From a virus (Duplodnaviria; Heunggongvirae; Uroviricota; Caudoviricetes): DNA of 34,515 nucleotides. This document shows, piece by piece, positions 7,466 through 12,706 of the stretch (its first letter is position 1; every line of letters begins with the position of its first letter). The notes under the pieces are model-generated. The model was not told the origin of the DNA and did no database searches. It worked only from the letters and a program-made list of their open reading frames with translations. The stretch is from IMG/VR virus record IMGVR_UViG_2667527976_000007; one strand, 5' to 3'. A program made the position numbers and the translations under genes.

Positions 7466-8377
7466 TTATGCCTCCAGCCCGTTAATCTGTGGCGTCGGCT
7501 CAGTCAGCCATGAAGGCGCGGCATTGCCTGTTGGCTCATCCGGCAGGTCAAATGTGGAGCGCAGGCTACGCGCTGTGCTTTCCAGTTGACAGACCAGGCC
7601 TGCCATGAAGTCTCTGGGGGTATCAATCATGTTTTCAGCACAATATGCGCACAGCGTCTCAAAAGCGCTGGACAGTCGAACGGCGATAGCAGATTCCGCC
7701 TCAACCGCTAATGCTGTCACTTCCGCCCGCAGCTTCTTAACCTCTTCATCAGGCTCAGGCGGCTGAATACGGGATTTCTTCTCCAGTCTGGTGGAGAGTG
7801 AGTCTATTTTTTCATTTTTGTCAGCGAGTACGCGCTGTTGTGCTGCGTTGGTTTCGCGCGCTTCGCGCAGGGCCTGACGCAATTCACGTACTGACATGCG
7901 ATCAACGTCGTCAAGCGTCAGGCCGGCAACTGTGCCGCCGTCGGCCAGTTCGGCAAGCTCTTCGTCGTCTTCTGTCATTAATTCGAAAAGTTTGGCTTTT
8001 CCCAAATGTGCCAACGTTGGCACATTTGGTTTCAGCGCCGGGGATAAGTATTTTGTCGATGCTTGCATCATTCTCACAGATGTCCGGTATGCCAGCCCCA
8101 ACTCACTTTCAAGAATCTTTATAAACTCCCCGTGTGGTTCATTTTCCTTAAGGATTATCAGCCGCTTACCTGCCTCCAGCATGGCCTCAGCGCTCTGTGC
8201 CATATAAAAGCGTGCCTCATGGACAACACGATCGCGCTCATAGGGCAGACCATCGCCGAACTGTTGCATGATTTCCATGCGATGCTGTGTCATGGCGTTT
8301 AGACTGACATTGAGATCATCCGACAGCGGTACCTCGACGTTCAGTTCAGTGCTAACCGGTGATTTGGTGCGTCCCAT
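7466..8377 (-). CDS. DUF3102-like early protein
   Basis: 303 aa; between the regulators and the transposase, a position where Mu-like prophages often carry a DUF3102 protein; assigned by family resemblance only. Confidence 0.45.
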   Translation of the reverse strand: MGRTKSPVSTELNVEVPLSDDLNVSLNAMTQHRMEIMQQFGDGLPYERDRVVHEARFYMAQSAEAMLEAGKRLIILKENEPHGEFIKILESELGLAYRTSVRMMQASTKYLSPALKPNVPTLAHLGKAKLFELMTEDDEELAELADGGTVAGLTLDDVDRMSVRELRQALREARETNAAQQRVLADKNEKIDSLSTRLEKKSRIQPPEPDEEVKKLRAEVTALAVEAESAIAVRLSSAFETLCAYCAENMIDTPRDFMAGLVCQLESTARSLRSTFDLPDEPTGNAAPSWLTEPTPQINGLEA

Positions 8378-8387
8378 TGATTACTCC

Positions 8388-8696
8388 TTACAAACGACTA
8401 CCTGAAATAACACGTTGGTTGATTTCGTTAATGCGATCCTGTGCACGTGCCATCTCGTTACTGTGGGCCATGGCGATCTGCAGCAACTGGATGCCTGGTG
8501 CGAAACGCCCGTTTTCTAGTTTCAGAGCCAACCCTTCTTCAATGAGCGTGTTAAGTGCCCGGTTGATGTTTGCCGGTGATTCGTGCAGTGCAACCGCTAG
8601 TTCCCCGTTAGAAACACCGTTCAAAGCGTGGCCACGTAAGGCCTTAAGAACGCGCAAAATACGGGTACCTGAGCTTGATGTATTTGGTTTATTCAT
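8388..8696 (-). CDS. small HTH DNA-binding protein (102 aa)
   Basis: Winged-helix-like segment 'GVSNGELAVALHESPANINRALNTLIEEGLA'; second gene of the early operon. Confidence 0.5.
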   Translation of the reverse strand: MNKPNTSSSGTRILRVLKALRGHALNGVSNGELAVALHESPANINRALNTLIEEGLALKLENGRFAPGIQLLQIAMAHSNEMARAQDRINEINQRVISGSRL

Positions 8697-8917
8697 GACG
8701 CCTCCTTAAGGATACCGGGGGTAACTTCTTTACCTATTGCAACCGATAGATCTCGCAAAATCCGATAAGTCAAACGACCGCGAGGTAGTTCACTTTTACC
8801 AGCCCAGCGACTGACTGCCTGGGTGACTGTTCGTGGTTCATAGCCCGCGTTAAGCGCGAACTGGCGCAAGCTACTGCCTCGTTCAACCAGCCGTGCCCGA
8901 ACTTGTTGTTTGTTCAT
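8693..8917 (-). CDS. Ner-like DNA-binding regulator
   Basis: 74 aa from the ATG at 8917; '...LRQFALNAGYEPRTVTQAVSR.W.....L' resembles the Mu Ner/Nlp family; first gene of the leftward early operon, divergent from the XRE gene. Confidence 0.65.
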   Translation of the reverse strand: MNKQQVRARLVERGSSLRQFALNAGYEPRTVTQAVSRWAGKSELPRGRLTYRILRDLSVAIGKEVTPGILKEAS

Positions 8918-9005
8918 ATGCACCGTGTTCCTGTTAGGTTATGATGTACTCTATTGGGTCTATTGTACACACCCAAATGAGTGTGTCAAATTGAGATATG
9001 TTCAA
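8918..9005. promoter_or_regulatory. divergent promoter/operator (switch) region between Ner-like and XRE-type genes
   Basis: 88-bp AT-rich spacer between divergent start codons; contains inverted repeat ACACAC(8967-8972)/GTGTGT(8981-8986) with an 8-bp spacer and a TGTAC direct repeat. Confidence 0.5.
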
Positions 9006-9413
9006 ATGAGTACAAAAGAGAGATTGCGTGAAGTGATGGATGCTAATGGCATGACAATAAAGGCATTATCTAACTTATCAAAAATTCCATATCGCTCACT
9101 TCAAAACTATTTGCGTGGAGAGAGAGAACCAAACGCAGAGGCTCTTGTTGCGCTAAGCACCCATTTGGGTGTATCGATCGATTGGCTACTTACCGGTAAA
9201 GAACATATTCCATCTAAAGAAATTGTTGCTGTACCAACACAACATCAATTCAGCCCGTCAGACCTTAAAATGCTTGAACTTCTAAACCAGTTAGATCCTG
9301 AGGTTCGGCGAGATCTCATGCGAGGCGCTGAAGAAAAACAGCGTGTGATTGAGATGGAAAAACAACTGAAGGAATTATCCGCAACGATTGAGCGGTTAAA
9401 AAATGTGGGTTAA
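9006..9413 (+). CDS. XRE-family HTH regulator (candidate prophage repressor or regulator of the adjacent cargo operon)
   Basis: Internal ATG at 9006 of ORF 8910..9413; HTH_XRE-like N-terminus '...MTIKALSNLSKIPYRSLQNYLRGEREPNAEALVALSTHLGVSIDWLL' and a C-terminal coiled-coil-like tail; AT-rich like the downstream operon. Confidence 0.65.
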   Translation: MSTKERLREVMDANGMTIKALSNLSKIPYRSLQNYLRGEREPNAEALVALSTHLGVSIDWLLTGKEHIPSKEIVAVPTQHQFSPSDLKMLELLNQLDPEVRRDLMRGAEEKQRVIEMEKQLKELSATIERLKNVG

Positions 9414-9483
9414 TGTGTTCCTAACGAGAACATATAGCAGAAATTATTTGCCATTAAGCAATAAAAAATAAGGTGGATAGCTA

Positions 9484-10491
9484 ATGTCTGAGCAGACCAT
9501 TGAAGTTAAACACGTTGTAGTTCACATTTTAGACAAACAACAAAATGGAGACGCTTCTGAGAGATTGAGTCCTGAAGAAGGTCTAGTTACTGAAGCCTCC
9601 CAGCGCCTTATAAACGATATTTGTGCAAAATATGCAGGACGCACAGGTAAAGGTTATGGCTATTTTGAAGGCGATACGGATAACTATCCTATGGAACGAA
9701 TGGCTGGGGACTTTCTCGAAGGTGTTGATGATTTCTACCAAAGTTCCTGCCGAATGATGCATCACCTGACGGAACGTTCTCAGCGAGAAAACATGGCTAC
9801 TGGTGGTTATGTTCTTTTTGCAAATATCGTGATAGGACACAATGAACACCTGTTGATAGCTATTGTAAGCGCTACCATTGGATCCACTGTCACAGATGAT
9901 TTTAACATCCAAGATAGTACCTATCTTGATATTGCTAAGCTGCGTATGGCTGGGCGCATTGACTTAACCGCGTGGGAAAGTGGCGCAGAGCGCTATATCA
10001 GTTTTCTTAAGGGGCAAGGTAATGTTTCAAACTATTTTAAACAGTTCCTCGGCTGTAATGATGTCTTAATCGCCAAACGAGAGTCTGAAAAGTTACGTGA
10101 CGTTTTAAAAGCATTTGCGGCAGAGAAAGGACTTGACGGCGCTGAAAAAGATGCATTTCTTAAGAGTGCGTTTGAACACTTACATGCACTAAGTAAGGCT
10201 GGTGAACCACTTAGTCTTGAAACCCTTGTTAATGCCATTTGGCCCCAGGCTCCCGAGGAGTTATCTGGTAAACTTGCTGCTGAAGAGTTGGAGTTATCGG
10301 ATGGCTTCGTTCCTGATGGTCGAGTCATTCGGGCTCTGGTATCTTTTAAAGGCAAGTCTAAATATTGGGAACTTAAGTTTGACCGGGAAGGGAAAACTGA
10401 AGGCTATATTGATTATGATCCGGAAACAAATATTATCACCCTACGTAATGTACCTGAAGAATTTAGGGAAATGTGGATGACTGAGGTTTAA
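9484..10491 (+). CDS. YejK/NdpA-like nucleoid-associated protein (NA37 family) homologue
   Basis: 335 aa, the same length as E. coli YejK; blocks 'YLDIAKLRMAGRIDLTAWESGAERYISFLKG' and C-terminal 'YDPETNIITLRNVPEEF' parallel YejK blocks as I recall them; AAGGTGG RBS upstream; markedly AT-rich. Confidence 0.6.
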   Translation: MSEQTIEVKHVVVHILDKQQNGDASERLSPEEGLVTEASQRLINDICAKYAGRTGKGYGYFEGDTDNYPMERMAGDFLEGVDDFYQSSCRMMHHLTERSQRENMATGGYVLFANIVIGHNEHLLIAIVSATIGSTVTDDFNIQDSTYLDIAKLRMAGRIDLTAWESGAERYISFLKGQGNVSNYFKQFLGCNDVLIAKRESEKLRDVLKAFAAEKGLDGAEKDAFLKSAFEHLHALSKAGEPLSLETLVNAIWPQAPEELSGKLAAEELELSDGFVPDGRVIRALVSFKGKSKYWELKFDREGKTEGYIDYDPETNIITLRNVPEEFREMWMTEV

Positions 10492-10493
10492 TC

Positions 10494-11699
10494 GTGGCGA
10501 TTTCATTTGAGATGCTGACAGATCTGTATCGTCGTATGGAATTCCAAGAGGGGTTTCGTGTCGGTTCGCTGTTGCTCTTAGATCAGTCCGATTGTGATCT
10601 GGTTGATACTTTGCTTGATGATCCTCGTGAATATGGTCTTTCTATTGATACAGGCACTATCGCTCCAGGTAACACGATCATCCTACGTGTGACGTCACCA
10701 CGGAGTGGACTGGGACTTGTGTTTTCCACCCATGAAAAATTGCTAAATGCTCCAAAGCATCAGTGCCTTGAGCCAGCTAATTACTTCATCCTAGAAACAA
10801 AGTTTCGTAATGATGATGAAGATATCCCCGTTTTCATCAGCAACTACCGGAAGATTCTCGAGTTCGTTAACCTGCTAAAAGAGGCCGCGGCCTACTTTGA
10901 TAACTCAACTTGTCAGTTAGTTTTTCTGAAAAAAGAAGTTATCAAGCTATTACCGCACTTCGCTGCAGAAAATGTACAAAATTTGCAAAGAGAGTATCTT
11001 GATAACCTTATAGCTTGTTTCAATGATGATACCCATAAGGATCAGAAGCTAGATATTCTGATTGAAAGTATCCAAGCAGTTAGTGATGGAATTGATTCAC
11101 CTCTAGTATTCGCTTATTTACTGGACAATATTCAGCGTCTGCATGAAAAGTTTCTGAAAGGGTATCGTATCTACTCTTCTGGATTCTCTTATGACAAAGT
11201 AATGGATCAACTGCGTGCTGCAAAAGTCGAAGAAATGGGTAAAATCCACAAAGCGTTTTCAGATATCCAGAACCATATACTTGGCATTCCTGTTGCCTCT
11301 GTTATCGTAGCTACCCAATTCAAAGTGGCTACGAAATGGTCAGGCCAAGGGATAACAAACACAATAATTCTTCTGGGATGCATTTTTGCTGCAACGTTAA
11401 TCTGGCTGGCACTTTCGAACCAGATGCAATCTATAAAGGCCTTAGGCGAAGAAATTGAATACAAAGAAAAACAGATTAATAAGGAATATTCCTTCATTAA
11501 AGATGACGTGGCTGGTGTATTTAGCAGTATTTCTGCGCGACTAGACACGCAGAAACGTACGTTCTGGATTATACGTGGTGTTCTAGTTATGGGAATTATT
11601 ACCGCTATCACTGTTTATTTTTGGTACACAAAACCAGCCCTTGACTTCATGCAGTACTTGATTCACTGCATGAAGTCTTACTATTCGGTCAAAAGTTGA
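10494..11699 (+). CDS. uncharacterised protein with soluble N-terminal domain and two C-terminal TM helices
   Basis: GTG start 2 nt after the upstream TAA (translational coupling); predicted TM helices at about residues 287-307 and 357-377; no recognisable catalytic motif; AT-rich. Confidence 0.55.
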   Translation: MAISFEMLTDLYRRMEFQEGFRVGSLLLLDQSDCDLVDTLLDDPREYGLSIDTGTIAPGNTIILRVTSPRSGLGLVFSTHEKLLNAPKHQCLEPANYFILETKFRNDDEDIPVFISNYRKILEFVNLLKEAAAYFDNSTCQLVFLKKEVIKLLPHFAAENVQNLQREYLDNLIACFNDDTHKDQKLDILIESIQAVSDGIDSPLVFAYLLDNIQRLHEKFLKGYRIYSSGFSYDKVMDQLRAAKVEEMGKIHKAFSDIQNHILGIPVASVIVATQFKVATKWSGQGITNTIILLGCIFAATLIWLALSNQMQSIKALGEEIEYKEKQINKEYSFIKDDVAGVFSSISARLDTQKRTFWIIRGVLVMGIITAITVYFWYTKPALDFMQYLIHCMKSYYSVKS

Positions 11700-12459
11700 G
11701 GATAATGAGTTCCTTCTTGCGACTGGATTTGCCAGTGATCTTGAGGTTGTAGCTGATATCAACCGACTGAATATTTAGACCGTTGAATGCCTGCCGCATT
11801 TCCGGGATATCGTTCACCGATATAATCATCTTCCCTTTGATCCTGCGTGCTAAATCTGCCATATGATCATAATTTTCTAGTCCGAACTCCACACCATAAC
11901 CTTCCGTTCCCCAGTATGGAGGGTCACAGTAGAACAACGTATGCGGGCGATCATATCGTTCTATGCACTGTTGCCAGTCCATGTGTTCTATGACCGTTCT
12001 GGAAAGCCGCAGGTGTGCCGCTGACAGTTCTTCTTCAATACGCAGCAGGTTGAAGCGTGGCGGGGATATGGTGGAGGTACCAAAGCTGTGCTCCGCCACC
12101 TTGCCTCCAAACGCCTGCTTCTGAAGGTAGTAGAACCGTGCTGCACGCTGGATATCCGTCAGTGTTTCTTCCGGGGTGATCTGCAGCCATTTGTAGATCT
12201 GCCGGCTGACCAGCGCCCATTTGAACTGGCGTACAAATTCTTCCAGATGATGTTTTACCACCCGATACAGGTTCACCAGTTCACCGTTGATATCATTAAT
12301 GACTTCGATCTTGCCGGGTACCTTAAGAAAATAGAGCGCTGCTGCCCCACAAAACGGCTCCACATAACATTCATGCGCCGGAAACAGCGGCAGGATGTGT
12401 TTTGCAAGGCGGCGTTTGCCACCAATCCATGGAACGATGGGTAATGTCTGCATTTTCAT
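11689..12459 (-). CDS. DNA N6-adenine methyltransferase (Dam/D12-class family)
   Basis: 256 aa; N-terminal 'VEPFCGAAALYF' (SAM-binding motif I) and catalytic 'DPPY' motif; convergent with the cargo operon, overlapping its end by 11 nt. Confidence 0.8.
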   Translation of the reverse strand: MKMQTLPIVPWIGGKRRLAKHILPLFPAHECYVEPFCGAAALYFLKVPGKIEVINDINGELVNLYRVVKHHLEEFVRQFKWALVSRQIYKWLQITPEETLTDIQRAARFYYLQKQAFGGKVAEHSFGTSTISPPRFNLLRIEEELSAAHLRLSRTVIEHMDWQQCIERYDRPHTLFYCDPPYWGTEGYGVEFGLENYDHMADLARRIKGKMIISVNDIPEMRQAFNGLNIQSVDISYNLKITGKSSRKKELIILNF

Positions 12460-12564
12460 AATCTGTAAGCCTTTTACAATTATAAAAAATATGGCAGGCT
12501 AGTCTGGTCTCGCGAGACTGACTGAACCTCGGTCGGCTCACAGCGCATTCCTGTGGGGCGATGG

Positions 12565-12602
12565 CCAGCCCGGTGTTCGGGTACCGGGCTGGTCGTTCTT
12601 TC
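12565..12602 (+). terminator. putative intrinsic terminator/insulator hairpin
   Basis: 9-bp stem CCAGCCCGG / CCGGGCTGG (12565-12573 and 12584-12592) with a 10-nt loop, followed by T-rich TCGTTCTTTC. Confidence 0.35.
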
Positions 12603-12706
12603 AAAGTCATCATGCAGTGCACGTTTACATCTTCACTATTAACGCTGTTTAAAATCCGTATCCCGCCACATTTGTGATGCTGTCTCCACCAAACGAGGAG
12701 ACACAC

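What the first reader, a model, noticed from the sequence alone, without database searches (positions are those of the whole stretch)
8918..9483. AT-rich switch region: XRE-type HTH gene could be the prophage repressor or a dedicated regulator of the cargo operon
The XRE-family gene (9006-9413) is divergent from the Ner-like early operon, which is the position of a Mu-type repressor. It nevertheless shares the low GC of the downstream cargo operon, suggesting the AT-rich block 8930-11700 may have been acquired as one unit. The divergent spacer carries an inverted repeat ACACAC-N8-GTGTGT at 8967-8986.
Basis: partly seen in the sequence, partly recalled or inferred. Interest (0 to 1): 0.55.

Follow-up and report, generated by a model that had tools for sequence, protein, structure and literature searches.

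The report
Transposable prophage repressor switch region
This is the ordinary lysis/lysogeny switch of a BcepMu-like transposable prophage of E. coli: a small DicA/P22-c2-type repressor gene facing a strong early promoter, with an exchangeable anti-phage gene cassette riding behind the repressor rather than owning it as a private regulator.

Summary
The window is a BcepMu-like (Bcepmuvirus) prophage of E. coli. The 135-aa XRE protein (9006-9413) is best read as the phage immunity repressor. It is 34% identical over its full length to the Qin prophage repressor DicA. Its DNA-binding domain superposes on P22 c2. It occupies the slot of BcepMu gp17. The 88-bp spacer holds the only near-consensus sigma-70 promoter of the whole window (TTGACA-16-TACAAT, minus strand), aimed at the early/transposase operon. 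As described, the repeat is no better than chance and its arms vary among relatives. It does overlap a better-supported 14-bp dyad, CACCCA-AA-TGAGTG. In about 40 related loci the same repressor and spacer occur with unrelated cargo. The NdpA-like cassette also occurs in other slots and in other phages without this gene. All repressor variants and all cargos are AT-rich. So the "dedicated cargo regulator" and "one acquired block" readings are not supported. The cargo matches the recently described NAP-plus-membrane-effector defence (PANGU type II / DS-1-like) and is probably co-transcribed with the repressor, like lambda cI-rexAB. This is an ordinary finding of modest interest.

The parts
8693..8917 (-). 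First gene of the early (transposase) operon. It is a 74-aa small DNA-binding protein of the BcepMu gp16 family, in the position of Ner/Cro. An alternative GTG start lies at 8923.
   Evidence: ORF. phrog_8503 at E 5e-35. TIGR04111 BcepMu_gp16 at 29 bits, below cut-off. 100% identical in most relatives.
8962..8989 (-). Early promoter Pe: -35 TTGACA (8989..8984), 16-nt spacer, -10 TACAAT (8967..8962). The inferred start is near 8955, reading into the gp16-like/IclR-like/DUF3102/transposase operon.
   Evidence: 11/12 consensus match. It is the only match of 11/12 or better on either strand of the 34.5-kb window. The hexamers are invariant in nearly all X-type relatives. Equivalent hexamers sit at the same positions in the other immunity types. 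Function is inferred.
8967..8986 (.). It fills the gap between the Pe hexamers.
   Evidence: Sequence. Not significant by shuffles. Arms are polymorphic among relatives.
8970..8983 (.). Candidate main operator O-a: the 14-bp dyad CACCCA-AA-TGAGTG, inside the Pe core promoter.
   Evidence: Matches YACYCAWWTGRGTR exactly. A second exact match lies at 9158-9171. There are 3 hits at 1 mismatch or fewer against 0.27 expected, but the pattern was derived from these sites. The left half is kept in relatives down to 54% protein identity. The position equals that of the statistically supported operator of the P-type relatives. Binding is inferred.
8947..8960 (.). Weak operator-like site O(-1), TACTCTATTGGGTC, 23 bp left of O-a. 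It covers the inferred Pe start and lies next to the candidate Pc -10.
   Evidence: 8/12 arm matches. The 23-bp offset is the same as in P-type relatives. The site is invariant in X-type loci. Weak evidence.
8999..9012 (.). Weak operator-like site O-b, TGTTCAAATGAGTA, 29 bp right of O-a. It overlaps the repressor start codon.
   Evidence: It shares the 9-mer CAAATGAGT with O-a. In Serratia relative L039 the two sites are 12/14 identical. The 29-bp offset is the same as in the P type. Weak evidence.
8940..8945 (+). Candidate -10 (TATGAT) of the repressor promoter Pc. The -35 is poor.
   Evidence: Best plus-strand candidate, at only 8/12. T1, A2 and T6 are kept in all relatives while position 4 varies: TATGAT, TATCAT, TATTAT, TATTGT. 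Inferred.
9006..9413 (+). Immunity repressor, 135 aa. It has a five-helix XRE/P22-c2-type HTH (residues 3-63), a flexible linker (64-83) and a C-terminal helical, coiled-coil-like domain (84-134). It has no S24 peptidase domain.
   Evidence: Pfam HTH_3 and Phage_CI_repr. PHROG repressor families. 34% identity to DicA over 124 aa. Foldseek top hit is P22 c2 at rmsd 0.9 A. AF2 model.
9158..9171 (.). Perfect 14-bp palindrome CACCCATTTGGGTG inside the repressor gene (codons 51-56), 188 bp from O-a. It is a candidate auxiliary operator.
   Evidence: Top inverted repeat I1, 14/15 with 8969-8983. 12/12 arm match. Copies at the same +152 position occur in L037, L039 and L041. It is lost in the lineage with the small cargo and it lies in coding sequence, so the evidence is mixed.
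9416..9432 (.). Conserved inverted repeat TGTTC-N7-GAACA, 3 nt after the repressor stop. It marks the left boundary of the exchangeable cargo slot. Its function is unknown.
   Evidence: The arms are kept in all related loci whatever the DNA-binding domain or cargo, while the centre varies. It is unique in the window. It forms only a weak hairpin and has no U-run.
9470..9476 (+). Shine-Dalgarno sequence AAGGTGG of the NA37 gene, 7 nt before its ATG.
   Evidence: Sequence. No promoter at 9/12 or better and no terminator were found in 9414-9483.
9484..10491 (+). Cargo gene 1: a YejK/NdpA-family nucleoid-associated protein, matching the sensor component of PANGU type II / DS-1-like defence systems.
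   Evidence: PF04245 at E 1e-80. phrog_3767. NCBIfam YejK at 186 bits and DS1_1_antiphage at 64 bits, both below cut-off. Literature.
10494..11699 (+). Cargo gene 2: a 401-aa protein with an acidic N-terminal domain (net charge -11) and three C-terminal membrane segments (262-378). This is the Pag2B-like effector architecture.
   Evidence: phrog_5023. NCBIfam DS1_2_antiphage at 76 bits, below cut-off. Weak KwaA hit. Composition. It is paired with an NA37 gene in unrelated phages.
11643..11677 (+). 13-bp-stem hairpin at the 3' end of the cargo, the likely end of the repressor-cargo transcription unit. It is convergent with dam (11689-12459, minus strand).
   Evidence: dG -21 kcal/mol, z -4.06, 0 of 200 shuffles fold as well. 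Every cargo type carries its own hairpin before dam.

Best explanation
Region 8918-9483 is the immunity switch of a BcepMu-like transposable prophage.

The 135-aa XRE protein is the lysogeny-maintenance repressor. It is probably a dimer or higher oligomer held together by its C-terminal helical domain. It most likely binds a 14-bp dyad (CACCCA-AA-TGAGTG, 8970-8983) that lies between the -35 and -10 of the strong leftward early promoter Pe. That would shut off the gp16-like/IclR-like/DUF3102/transposase operon. Weaker flanking sites, and a palindromic copy inside its own gene, may add cooperativity or autoregulation.

The repressor gene is transcribed rightward from a weak promoter. With no terminator after it, transcription probably continues into whatever cassette occupies the slot between the repressor and dam. 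Here that cassette is a NAP-plus-membrane-effector abortive-infection system (PANGU type II / DS-1-like). The lysogen would therefore express repressor and defence together, as in lambda cI-rexA-rexB.

Shown: gene content, promoter match, homologies, mosaic structure, and independent assortment of repressor and cargo. Inferred: DNA binding at the named sites, repression, oligomeric state, co-transcription and defence activity.
For: 1. Position. The gene is divergent from the early operon across an 88-bp spacer that holds the only sigma-70 match of 11/12 or better in the window, pointing leftward.

2. Family.
- HTH_3 and Phage_CI_repr domains, and PHROG repressor families.
- 34% identity over 124 of 135 aa to the Qin prophage repressor DicA, which sits in the same divergent arrangement with dicC.
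- The NCBIfam DicA model matches full length.
- The model's DNA-binding domain superposes on P22 c2 (rmsd 0.9 A, 33% identity). By sequence the nearest solved structures are ImmR, 434 cI, P22 c2 and 186 CI.
- Some sources name cluster members 'phage repressor protein' or 'bacteriophage CI repressor'.

3. Synteny. BcepMu has gp16 (-), gp17 (+, XRE, 138 aa) and gp18 (membrane protein) at the same place. gp17 is called the lysogenic repressor in PMC2628397.

4. Immunity-type modularity.
- Relatives keep the gp16-like gene, the left 30-35 bp of the spacer and the C-terminal domain.
- They swap the right half of the spacer together with the DNA-binding domain, X type (HTH_3) against P type (PF07022).
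- PhiKM has a third type.

5. Operators.
- In the P type, 17-bp sites TTATTCAAAATGAATAA recur three times in the spacer. One fills the gap between the Pe hexamers (0-1 of 500 shuffles match the repeat).
- None lies upstream of cargo.
- The X-type candidate sites sit at the same 23-bp and 29-bp offsets.

6. Independence from cargo.
- The X-type repressor occurs with NA37+401aa (7 loci) or with a 177-aa protein (12 loci).
- The P-type repressor occurs with 297+153 aa (6 loci) or with the small protein (4 loci).
- The NA37 module lies in the Dam-holin slot in Serratia and behind another gene in E. coli L037.
- It also occurs in Sinorhizobium, Acinetobacter and Klebsiella phages.

7. Operon structure.
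- No terminator lies between the repressor and cargo.
- The cargo has a strong SD, and no promoter at 9/12 or better lies in the gap.
- A strong hairpin lies at the cargo's end.

8. Cargo identity. It matches type II PANGU and DS-1.
Against: - No experiment. Binding, repression and co-transcription are all inferred.
- The X-type operator cannot be established statistically from this window alone. The degenerate consensus was derived from the sites it then finds.
- The right half of O-a varies among relatives with an identical recognition helix: TGAGTG, CGGGTA, TGAACA.
- The intragenic copy lies in coding sequence and is lost in one lineage.
- No convincing promoter for the repressor gene itself was found. 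The best candidate scores 8/12.
- A 9/12 promoter-like site inside the repressor gene (9349-9378) could drive the cargo independently.
- Similarity to BcepMu gp17 is only 27% over 48 residues.
- The protein scores below the NCBIfam DicA cut-off, 40 against 101 bits.
- The induction mechanism is unknown. There is no S24 domain and no adjacent protease or antirepressor.
Confidence: 0.75

Rival explanations
1. The XRE protein is a dedicated regulator of the NdpA-like/membrane-protein cassette, acquired together with it as one AT-rich block.
For: - It lies directly upstream of the cassette, on the same strand, with the same low GC.
- The extreme C-terminus of the protein co-varies with cargo type, as expected for tight linkage.
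- It has a weak PADLOC hit to the defence regulator CapH, E 1e-5.
Against: - The same DNA-binding domain and spacer occur with unrelated cargo in 12 loci, and the same small cargo occurs with another DNA-binding domain.
- The NA37 module is found behind dam (L039), behind another gene (L037) and in unrelated phages, all without this gene.
- All repressor variants and all cargos are AT-rich.
- No operator-like site lies in 9414-9483.
- PhiKM has an XRE gene in this position and no cargo at all.
- There is no CapP/ImmA-type partner protease.
Confidence: 0.05
2. The XRE protein is a regulator of the switch but not the maintenance repressor. It could be a Cro-like or accessory factor, with true immunity provided by another prophage protein such as the gp16-like or IclR-like proteins.
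For: - Two further small HTH proteins are encoded next door.
- No experimental assignment exists for enterobacterial BcepMu-like phages.
- The protein is small and lacks a cleavage domain.
Against: - The two other HTH genes lie inside the early operon that must be silent in a lysogen.
- Only the XRE gene is transcribed away from it.
- The XRE gene, not the gp16-like gene, changes together with the operator half of the spacer. The gp16-like protein is 96-100% identical across both immunity types.
- The protein is homologous to DicA and P22 c2.
Confidence: 0.1
3. The ACACAC-N8-GTGTGT repeat, and the CACCCA dyad inside it, are chance features of an unconstrained promoter spacer. The real operators lie elsewhere, for example over the -35 (TCAAATTGA, 8986-8994) or the -10 (TGGGTCTATTGTACACACCCA, 8955-8975).
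For: - The repeat is not significant by shuffles.
- Four or five of the few substitutions in the spacer fall inside it, while the hexamers are invariant.
- Alternative dyads score 7/8 and 7/10.
Against: - The left half CAC(C/T)CA and the core CAAATG are kept down to 54% protein identity.
- Near-identical copies lie at +152 and, in Serratia, at the start codon.
- The P-type relatives place a statistically supported operator in exactly this gap.
Confidence: 0.3

Closest known systems
DicA, repressor of the cryptic lambdoid prophage Qin of E. coli K-12
   Same: Both are 135 aa. They share 34% identity over 124 residues, covering both the HTH and the C-terminal helical region with its LSPxxLxxLELxNxL motif. 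In both, the gene is divergent from a small Cro-like gene across a spacer of about 85 bp: dicC-dicA 83 bp, here 88 bp. Neither has an S24 peptidase domain.
   Different: The score is below NCBIfam's DicA cut-off, 40 against 101 bits. The host element is a lambdoid remnant, not a transposable phage. The downstream genes differ (ydfABC, dicF, dicB). No similarity between the operators was looked for.
BcepMu gp17 (with gp16 and gp18), Burkholderia phage BcepMu
   Same: Same genome position and orientation, between the leftward transposase operon and the lysis genes. Both are XRE HTH proteins of similar size (138 aa). Each is followed by a cargo-like membrane protein. gp17 is called the lysogenic repressor in PMC2628397.
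   Different: Only 27% identity, over 48 residues of the HTH. No detectable similarity was found by BLASTP between the two gp16-like proteins. BcepMu has no dam gene and no AT-rich bias there; gp17 is 60% GC.
P22 c2 and 434 cI repressors (N-terminal domains)
   Same: Five-helix HTH fold, rmsd 0.9 A and 33% identity to P22 c2. PDB profile hits. Operators of this class are 14-18-bp dyads, and the candidate site here has that form.
   Different: Those repressors carry a LexA-like S24 self-cleavage domain. This protein instead has a helical tail of about 50 residues, so RecA-mediated cleavage is not expected.
Mu c repressor (Rep)
   Same: Same functional position: a divergent gene facing the early ner-A-B-type operon of a transposable phage.
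   Different: Different fold family. There is no MuA-like winged-helix domain, so it is an analogue, not a homologue. In Mu the repressor gene lies next to the left end. Here it is internal and is followed by cargo, dam and the late genes.
Lambda cI-rexA-rexB immunity operon
   Same: A repressor gene followed on the same transcript by a two-gene abortive-infection system, made of a soluble DNA-binding component and a membrane effector, and expressed in the lysogen. This rests on established knowledge; the parallel is by architecture only.
   Different: The cargo proteins are unrelated. Co-transcription is inferred here. The cargo is exchangeable among close relatives.
PANGU type II (Pag2A NAP + Pag2B DMK-TM effector; bioRxiv 10.64898/2026.04.06.716658) and DS-1 (DefensePredictor, PMC13092281)
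   Same: A YejK-family NAP is followed within 2 bp by a protein with an acidic N-terminal domain and C-terminal membrane helices. Both proteins hit the NCBIfam DS1_1 and DS1_2 anti-phage models.
   Different: Scores are far below the equivalog cut-offs, 64 against 330 and 76 against 315 bits. No published sequences were available for comparison. Defence was not tested. The published accounts as read do not mention prophage or repressor linkage ('prophage' occurs 0 times).

Membership tests
XRE / Cro-CI-type HTH phage repressors (Pfam HTH_3, Phage_CI_repr) | N-terminal five-helix HTH domain above the family threshold | tested here: met
   PF01381 at 44 bits (cut-off 23). PF07022 at 28 bits (cut-off 22). 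The AF2 model has helices at 3-63. P22 c2 superposes at rmsd 0.9 A.
LexA-like cleavable repressors (lambda cI, P22 c2, 434 cI) | C-terminal S24 peptidase domain with a Ser/Lys dyad and a cleavage site | tested here: not met
   No Peptidase_S24 hit. The C-terminal 50 residues are predicted as two helices.
DicA subfamily (NCBIfam NF007257) | Full-length match above the curated cut-off | tested here: not met
   The alignment is full length (5-131 against 8-132 of 135) but scores only 40.3 bits against a cut-off of 101. Pairwise identity to K-12 DicA is 34%, E 7e-14. It is a relative, not a member by NCBI's criterion.
Mu-type c repressor | MuA-like winged-helix DNA-binding domain, with operators that double as the transposition enhancer | tested here: not met
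   No such Pfam domain; the fold is XRE. The enhancer function cannot be tested here.
Phage immunity repressor (functional class) | Divergent from the early lytic operon, with operators overlapping the early promoter | tested here: inconclusive
   The divergent arrangement and the 11/12 promoter are shown. Candidate operators lie inside the promoter, but binding was not tested and the statistics are weak for the X type. They are strong for the P-type relatives.
Phage immunity repressor (functional class) | The DNA-binding domain co-varies with the operator region between heteroimmune relatives | tested here: met
   The X and P types differ in 8938-9237 (36-58% identity), while the flanks are 90-100% identical.
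Phage immunity repressor (functional class) | Confers superinfection immunity and maintains lysogeny | not testable with these tools
   Needs genetics.
Dedicated regulator of a defence cassette (CapH-, BrxR- or ImmR-like) | Regulator and cassette travel together, with the regulator's site upstream of the cassette | tested here: not met
   Repressor and cargo assort independently. No operator-like site lies in 9414-9483. There is no partner protease.
PANGU type II / DS-1 defence (cargo) | YejK-like NAP gene in a two-gene operon (gap under 40 bp) with a TM effector that has an acidic N-terminal domain | tested here: met
   PF04245 at E 1e-80. The gap is 2 bp. The N-terminal domain has net charge -11 and there are three TM segments.
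PANGU type II / DS-1 defence (cargo) | Equivalog-level similarity to validated systems, and anti-phage activity | tested here: not met
   DS1_1 scores 63.7 against 330 bits and DS1_2 scores 75.9 against 315 bits, so they are distant homologues only. Activity cannot be tested here.

The most novel reading that the evidence does not exclude
BcepMu-like phages of Enterobacterales may have a defined 'repressor-coupled defence slot'. The slot is bounded on the left by the conserved 17-bp inverted repeat TGTTC-N7-GAACA (9416-9432) directly after the repressor stop codon. On the right, each cassette carries its own terminator hairpin.

The repeat would be a functional site, either a protein-binding or recombination site or an RNA-processing site. 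It would mediate cassette exchange, or set how much repressor transcription reads into the defence genes. In parallel, the small repressor would use an operator inside its own coding sequence (9158-9171) to loop DNA to the early promoter.
Probability: 0.15. Interest if true: 0.45.

Novelty: new member of a known kind. Interest (0 to 1): 0.28.

Why it matters
The result assigns the immunity repressor, the early promoter and the likely operator position for a common but unstudied group of E. coli and Enterobacterales transposable prophages. Related elements were matched in 634 of 5,426 complete E. coli genomes, and this repressor type in 62.

It also shows that the gene behind the repressor is a hot spot where different small cassettes are exchanged. 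One of these is a recently described nucleoid-protein-based abortive-infection system. That places a PANGU type II / DS-1-like system in a natural context in which it is probably expressed with the prophage repressor. This is useful for people who study prophage-encoded defence.

It does not reveal a new kind of regulator.

Tried and rejected
1. Treating the GTGTTCCT 8-mer found at 8925 and 9415 as a shared operator. Rejected: the left copy is the complement of the gp16-like gene's Shine-Dalgarno region, and an 8-mer repeat in 600 nt is expected by chance.

2. Reading the post-stop repeat as a terminator or structured RNA. Rejected: the consensus hairpin is -2.2 kcal/mol with no covariation, the local fold has z -0.58, and there is no U-run.

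3. TCTATTG x2 as direct-repeat operators. Five copies occur in the window against 2.7 expected, which is not significant.

4. A lambda PRM-like back-to-back promoter giving a leaderless repressor mRNA. No acceptable -10/-35 pair was found.

5. Kiwa (KwaA/KwaB) as the identity of the cargo. There is only a weak KwaA hit in the membrane region (E 8e-5) and no KwaB hit. This was superseded by the DS-1 and PANGU matches.

6. Direct homology to BcepMu gp17 and gp16 by BLASTP was weak or absent. Only synteny and the TIGR04111 hint remain.

7. Literature searches for PF04245 in phages, KwaB with NAPs, and Bcepmuvirus in E. coli gave nothing on this switch.

8. The PANGU preprint holds no sequences or supplements, so no direct comparison was possible.
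Full report
**What the window is.** The stretch 8300-12700 is 99.6-100% identical to chromosomal DNA of 18 complete E. coli genomes. Partial matches occur in 634 of 5,426 genomes and in phages classified as Bcepmuvirus. In RefSeq record NZ_CP086627 the element begins with a Mor-family gene next to a truncated hycH. It continues leftward-transcribed through Gam, ExeA-type transposition protein B, a DDE transposase, DUF3102, an IclR-type HTH and a 74-aa protein. After the region in question come dam, holin, an SLT endolysin, and head and contractile-tail genes. This is the BcepMu layout. The early transposition genes run one way and the lysis and late genes the other, with the switch between them.

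**Checking the observation.**
- The ORF at 9006-9413 (+) encodes 135 aa with an HTH_3 domain (E 2e-11) and a Phage_CI_repr match.
- It is divergent from the 74-aa gene at 8693-8917 (-).
- GC is 38.6% in the spacer, 41.4% in the HTH gene, 31.4% in the 9414-9483 gap, and 42.7% and 40.5% in the two downstream genes. The whole window is 54.4%.
- ACACAC (8967-8972) and GTGTGT (8981-8986) are there with 8 nt between them.

All of this is confirmed. The repeat as described is not beyond chance. 29% of shuffled spacers have a perfect 6-nt inverted repeat with a loop of 0-20 nt. 10.5% of dinucleotide shuffles reach the 8/10 symmetry of the 20-mer.

**The spacer is a promoter.** A consensus scan finds TTGACA (8989..8984), 16 nt, TACAAT (8967..8962) on the minus strand, an 11/12 match. 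It is the only match of 11/12 or better on either strand of the 34.5-kb window. It points into the early operon and would start near 8955, so I call it Pe.

On the plus strand the best candidate for the repressor's own promoter is weak, at 8/12. Its -10 (TATGAT, 8940-8945) keeps T1, A2 and T6 in all relatives, while position 4 varies.

**What the protein is.**
- PHROGs place it in repressor families.
- Several source databases call cluster members 'phage repressor protein' or 'bacteriophage CI repressor'.
- NCBIfam's best model is DicA, aligned end to end but below cut-off.
- Against K-12 DicA itself, identity is 34% over 124 of 135 residues (E 7e-14), including the C-terminal region. dicA likewise faces a small Cro-like gene, dicC, across 83 bp.
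- An AlphaFold model (pLDDT 73) shows a five-helix HTH (3-63), a disordered linker (64-83) and a short helix plus a long helix (84-134).
- Foldseek's best PDB match is the P22 c2 DNA-binding domain (rmsd 0.9 A, 33% identity). ImmR, DdrO, 434 and TP901-1 repressors follow. A sequence profile search of the PDB gives the same list.
- There is no S24 peptidase domain.
- BcepMu gp17, a 138-aa XRE protein in the same position, is called the lysogenic repressor in PMC2628397. It shares only 27% identity over the HTH.

**The comparative test.** I collected about 40 related loci from E. coli genomes, GenBank phages, one genome per species, IMG/VR, and contigs encoding more distant homologues. For the main set of 29 related loci I tabulated the gp16-like gene, the spacer, the HTH protein, and everything between its stop codon and dam. 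Three results follow.

*First, the repressor is modular.* Two DNA-binding domains occur on one C-terminal domain. One is the X type of this window (HTH_3; MSIKERLRE...). The other is a P type (PF07022; MNKK.V.AVL...). The P type comes with a different right half of the spacer. The left 30-35 bp (the gp16-like gene's ribosome site and the TATNAT-GTACTC block), the spacer length (88-89 bp) and the positions of the Pe hexamers are kept. Binned identity to the window puts the breakpoints near 8940-8950, near 9190 (just after the DWLLTG motif) and at 9436. PhiKM carries a third type, an unannotated 118-aa XRE ORF facing a different small gene. A DNA-binding domain that is exchanged together with the adjacent operator region, between conserved flanks, is the signature of a phage immunity region.

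*Second, the repressor and the cargo assort independently.*

| Repressor type | Cargo between repressor and dam | Loci |
|---|---|---|
| X | NA37 + 401-aa pair | 7 |
| X | unrelated 177-181-aa protein | 12 |
| P | 297 + 153-aa pair | 6 |
| P | the small (143-177-aa) protein | 4 |

In more distant relatives:
- the NA37 pair lies behind dam in the Dam-holin slot (Serratia, L039);
- it lies behind a 173-aa gene (E. coli, L037);
- the 297-aa-type pair appears in the Dam-holin slot (L040).

The NA37 + partner pair is also found in Sinorhizobium phage phi2LM21, an Acinetobacter phage and a Klebsiella phage, with no such XRE gene.

*Third, low GC does not discriminate.* Repressor genes that have other cargos are 43-45% GC, and all cargos are 39-45%.

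**Operators.** In P-type loci a 17-bp near-palindrome, TTATTCAAAATGAATAA, recurs three times in the spacer, with centres 23 and 29 bp apart:
- the first copy is near the Pe start;
- the second exactly fills the gap between the Pe hexamers;
- the third lies over the repressor start codon.

A fourth copy lies inside the DNA-binding-domain coding region. None lies upstream of cargo. The repeat is reached by 0-1 of 500 shuffles.

In the X type the gap between the hexamers holds CACCCA-AA-TGAGTG (8970-8983). A perfect palindromic copy, CACCCATTTGGGTG, lies inside the gene at 9158-9171. This is the top inverted repeat found in the region, 14/15. Weaker matches sit 23 bp to the left (8947-8960, 8/12) and 29 bp to the right over the start codon (8999-12, 6/12). 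That is the same geometry as in the P type.

In relatives with the same recognition helix but only 54-66% overall identity:
- the left half and the CAAATG core of the promoter site are kept;
- Serratia has two 12/14-identical copies, in the promoter gap and at the start codon;
- the +152 copy is present as TACCCATTTGGGTA, AACCCATTTGGGTA or AACTCAAATGGGTA.

The degenerate pattern YACYCAWWTGRGTR has two exact hits in the window, both here. It has three hits at one mismatch or fewer, against 0.27 expected. The pattern was derived from these sites, so this number is only descriptive.

Against this model, the right half of the promoter site varies (TGAGTG, CGGGTA, TGAACA). The +152 copy is lost in the small-cargo lineage through a Gly-to-Asn change and is partly explained by coding constraint. 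The conserved dyad is offset from the ACACAC/GTGTGT arms, which are specific to this lineage and one other locus (L006).

**The second spacer, 9414-9483.** Its first 20 nt hold an inverted repeat, TGTTC-N7-GAACA (9416-9432). The arms are kept in every related locus, whatever the DNA-binding domain, the cargo, or the repressor's divergence. The seven central bases vary, and homology between cargo types stops right after the repeat. It is unique in the window. It makes only a weak hairpin without covariation or a U-run. It cannot be the repressor's operator, because it is shared by X and P types. I could not assign a function.

The rest of the gap belongs to the cassette. It is conserved with the upstream region of the Serratia copy only from about 9447 onward, and it ends in a strong Shine-Dalgarno sequence (9470-9476). 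No terminator and no promoter at 9/12 or better were found in the gap. A 9/12 site lies inside the repressor gene at 9349-9378. The cassette ends in a 13-bp-stem hairpin (11643-11677; -21 kcal/mol, z -4.06), and every other cargo type has its own hairpin before dam. The simplest reading is one transcription unit from repressor to cargo to hairpin. This is inferred, not shown.

**The cargo.**
- The 335-aa protein is a YejK/NdpA-family nucleoid-associated protein (PF04245, E 1e-80).
- The 401-aa protein has an acidic N-terminal domain (net charge -11) and three C-terminal membrane segments.
- NCBIfam matches them, well below cut-off, to DS1_1 'nucleoid-associated anti-phage protein' and DS1_2 'anti-phage protein'.
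- DefensePredictor reports a YejK domain among newly validated defence domains (PMC13092281).
- A 2026 preprint defines PANGU type II as a NAP (Pag2A) plus a TM effector (Pag2B) with an acidic DNA-mimic N-domain, acting by abortive infection against T4 (10.64898/2026.04.06.716658).

The architecture here fits that description. Membership at sequence level and activity could not be tested, because no sequences are held.

**How it most likely works.** In the lysogen the repressor, held as a dimer or higher oligomer by its helical tail, occupies the site inside Pe and probably the flanking weaker sites. This keeps the transposase operon silent. Its own weak rightward transcription continues into the defence cassette, so repressor and abortive-infection system are made together. 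This is analogous to lambda cI-rexA-rexB (established knowledge). The trigger for induction is unknown. Self-cleavage of the LexA type is not expected.

**Novelty and verdict.** The repressor is a new member of a known kind: DicA-like, P22-c2-fold, and a BcepMu gp17 positional equivalent. The switch architecture is conventional. The cargo belongs to a kind described in 2025-2026. The points that go beyond the ordinary are the exchange of DNA-binding domains on a constant C-terminal domain, the cassette slot bounded by an unexplained conserved inverted repeat, and the possible intragenic operator. Interest is modest (0.28).

Noticed in passing
window 9416-9432: A 17-bp inverted repeat, TGTTC-N7-GAACA, lies 3 nt after the repressor stop codon. 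Its arms are kept in all related loci, across both DNA-binding-domain types, all cargo types, and repressors down to 54% identity. The centre varies, and homology between cargo types ends right after it. It is not a convincing terminator or RNA structure. Its function is unknown.
   Followed up: partly
window 9484-11699: The 'cargo' is a YejK-family NAP plus a protein with an acidic N-domain and three TM segments. This is the architecture of PANGU type II. Both proteins hit the NCBIfam DS1_1 and DS1_2 anti-phage models, below cut-off. The same two-gene module occurs in Sinorhizobium phage phi2LM21 (L032 628-2806), an Acinetobacter phage (L034 2166-4532) and Klebsiella phage Kp4865-4 (L033).
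   Followed up: partly
window 12460-12673; L039 4942-6417; L040 4974-6261; L007 6855-7421; L005 7654-8976: There is a second variable slot between dam and the holin gene. It is empty (214 bp) in the window. In relatives it holds a DUF2441 protein, three small genes, the NA37+TM module (Serratia) or the 296+134-aa module. The same cassettes move between the two slots.
   Followed up: partly
window 11643-11699: The 401-aa ORF ends inside a 13-bp-stem hairpin (z -4.06). Its last 11 nt overlap the 3' end of the convergent dam gene (11689-12459).
   Followed up: partly
L003 2231-2587 (Escherichia phage PhiKM, PQ738613.1): An unannotated 118-aa XRE-family ORF (HTH_3, E 5e-15) lies in the repressor position. 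It faces a 62-aa gene that differs from the window's gp16-like gene. This is a third immunity type, with no cargo before dam. A record that matches the same dam/IclR flanks at 90.4% identity. Most E. coli matches fall in the 90-95% identity band (475 records), but their immunity type was not checked.
   Followed up: partly
window 8974-8982 and 9003-9011: The 9-mer CAAATGAGT, which contains the repressor start codon, is duplicated 29 bp upstream inside the early promoter. There it opens a 5-codon mini-ORF (ATG at 8977, stop at 8992-8994). It looks like a duplication of the gene's 5' end that created, or is, the operator.
   Followed up: partly
L005 5353-6643 and relatives L012, L024-L027, L040: An alternative cargo is a 297-aa protein with no Pfam hit, followed by an overlapping 153-aa membrane protein. 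This soluble-plus-membrane pair is reminiscent of two-gene abortive-infection systems. A consensus TTGACA follows the post-stop repeat in these loci.
   Followed up: no
window 1-~900 (L035 1-2895): The left end of the prophage lies next to a truncated hycH-like pseudogene beside hyfR. So this copy is inserted in the hyf/formate hydrogenlyase region. The Mor-family late activator is the first phage gene.
   Followed up: no
window 8388-8696: The second early gene encodes a 102-aa IclR-type winged-helix protein (phrog_1368). It is 35% identical to BcepMu gp12 and 82-100% conserved in all relatives whatever the immunity type. Its role in the switch is unknown.
   Followed up: no
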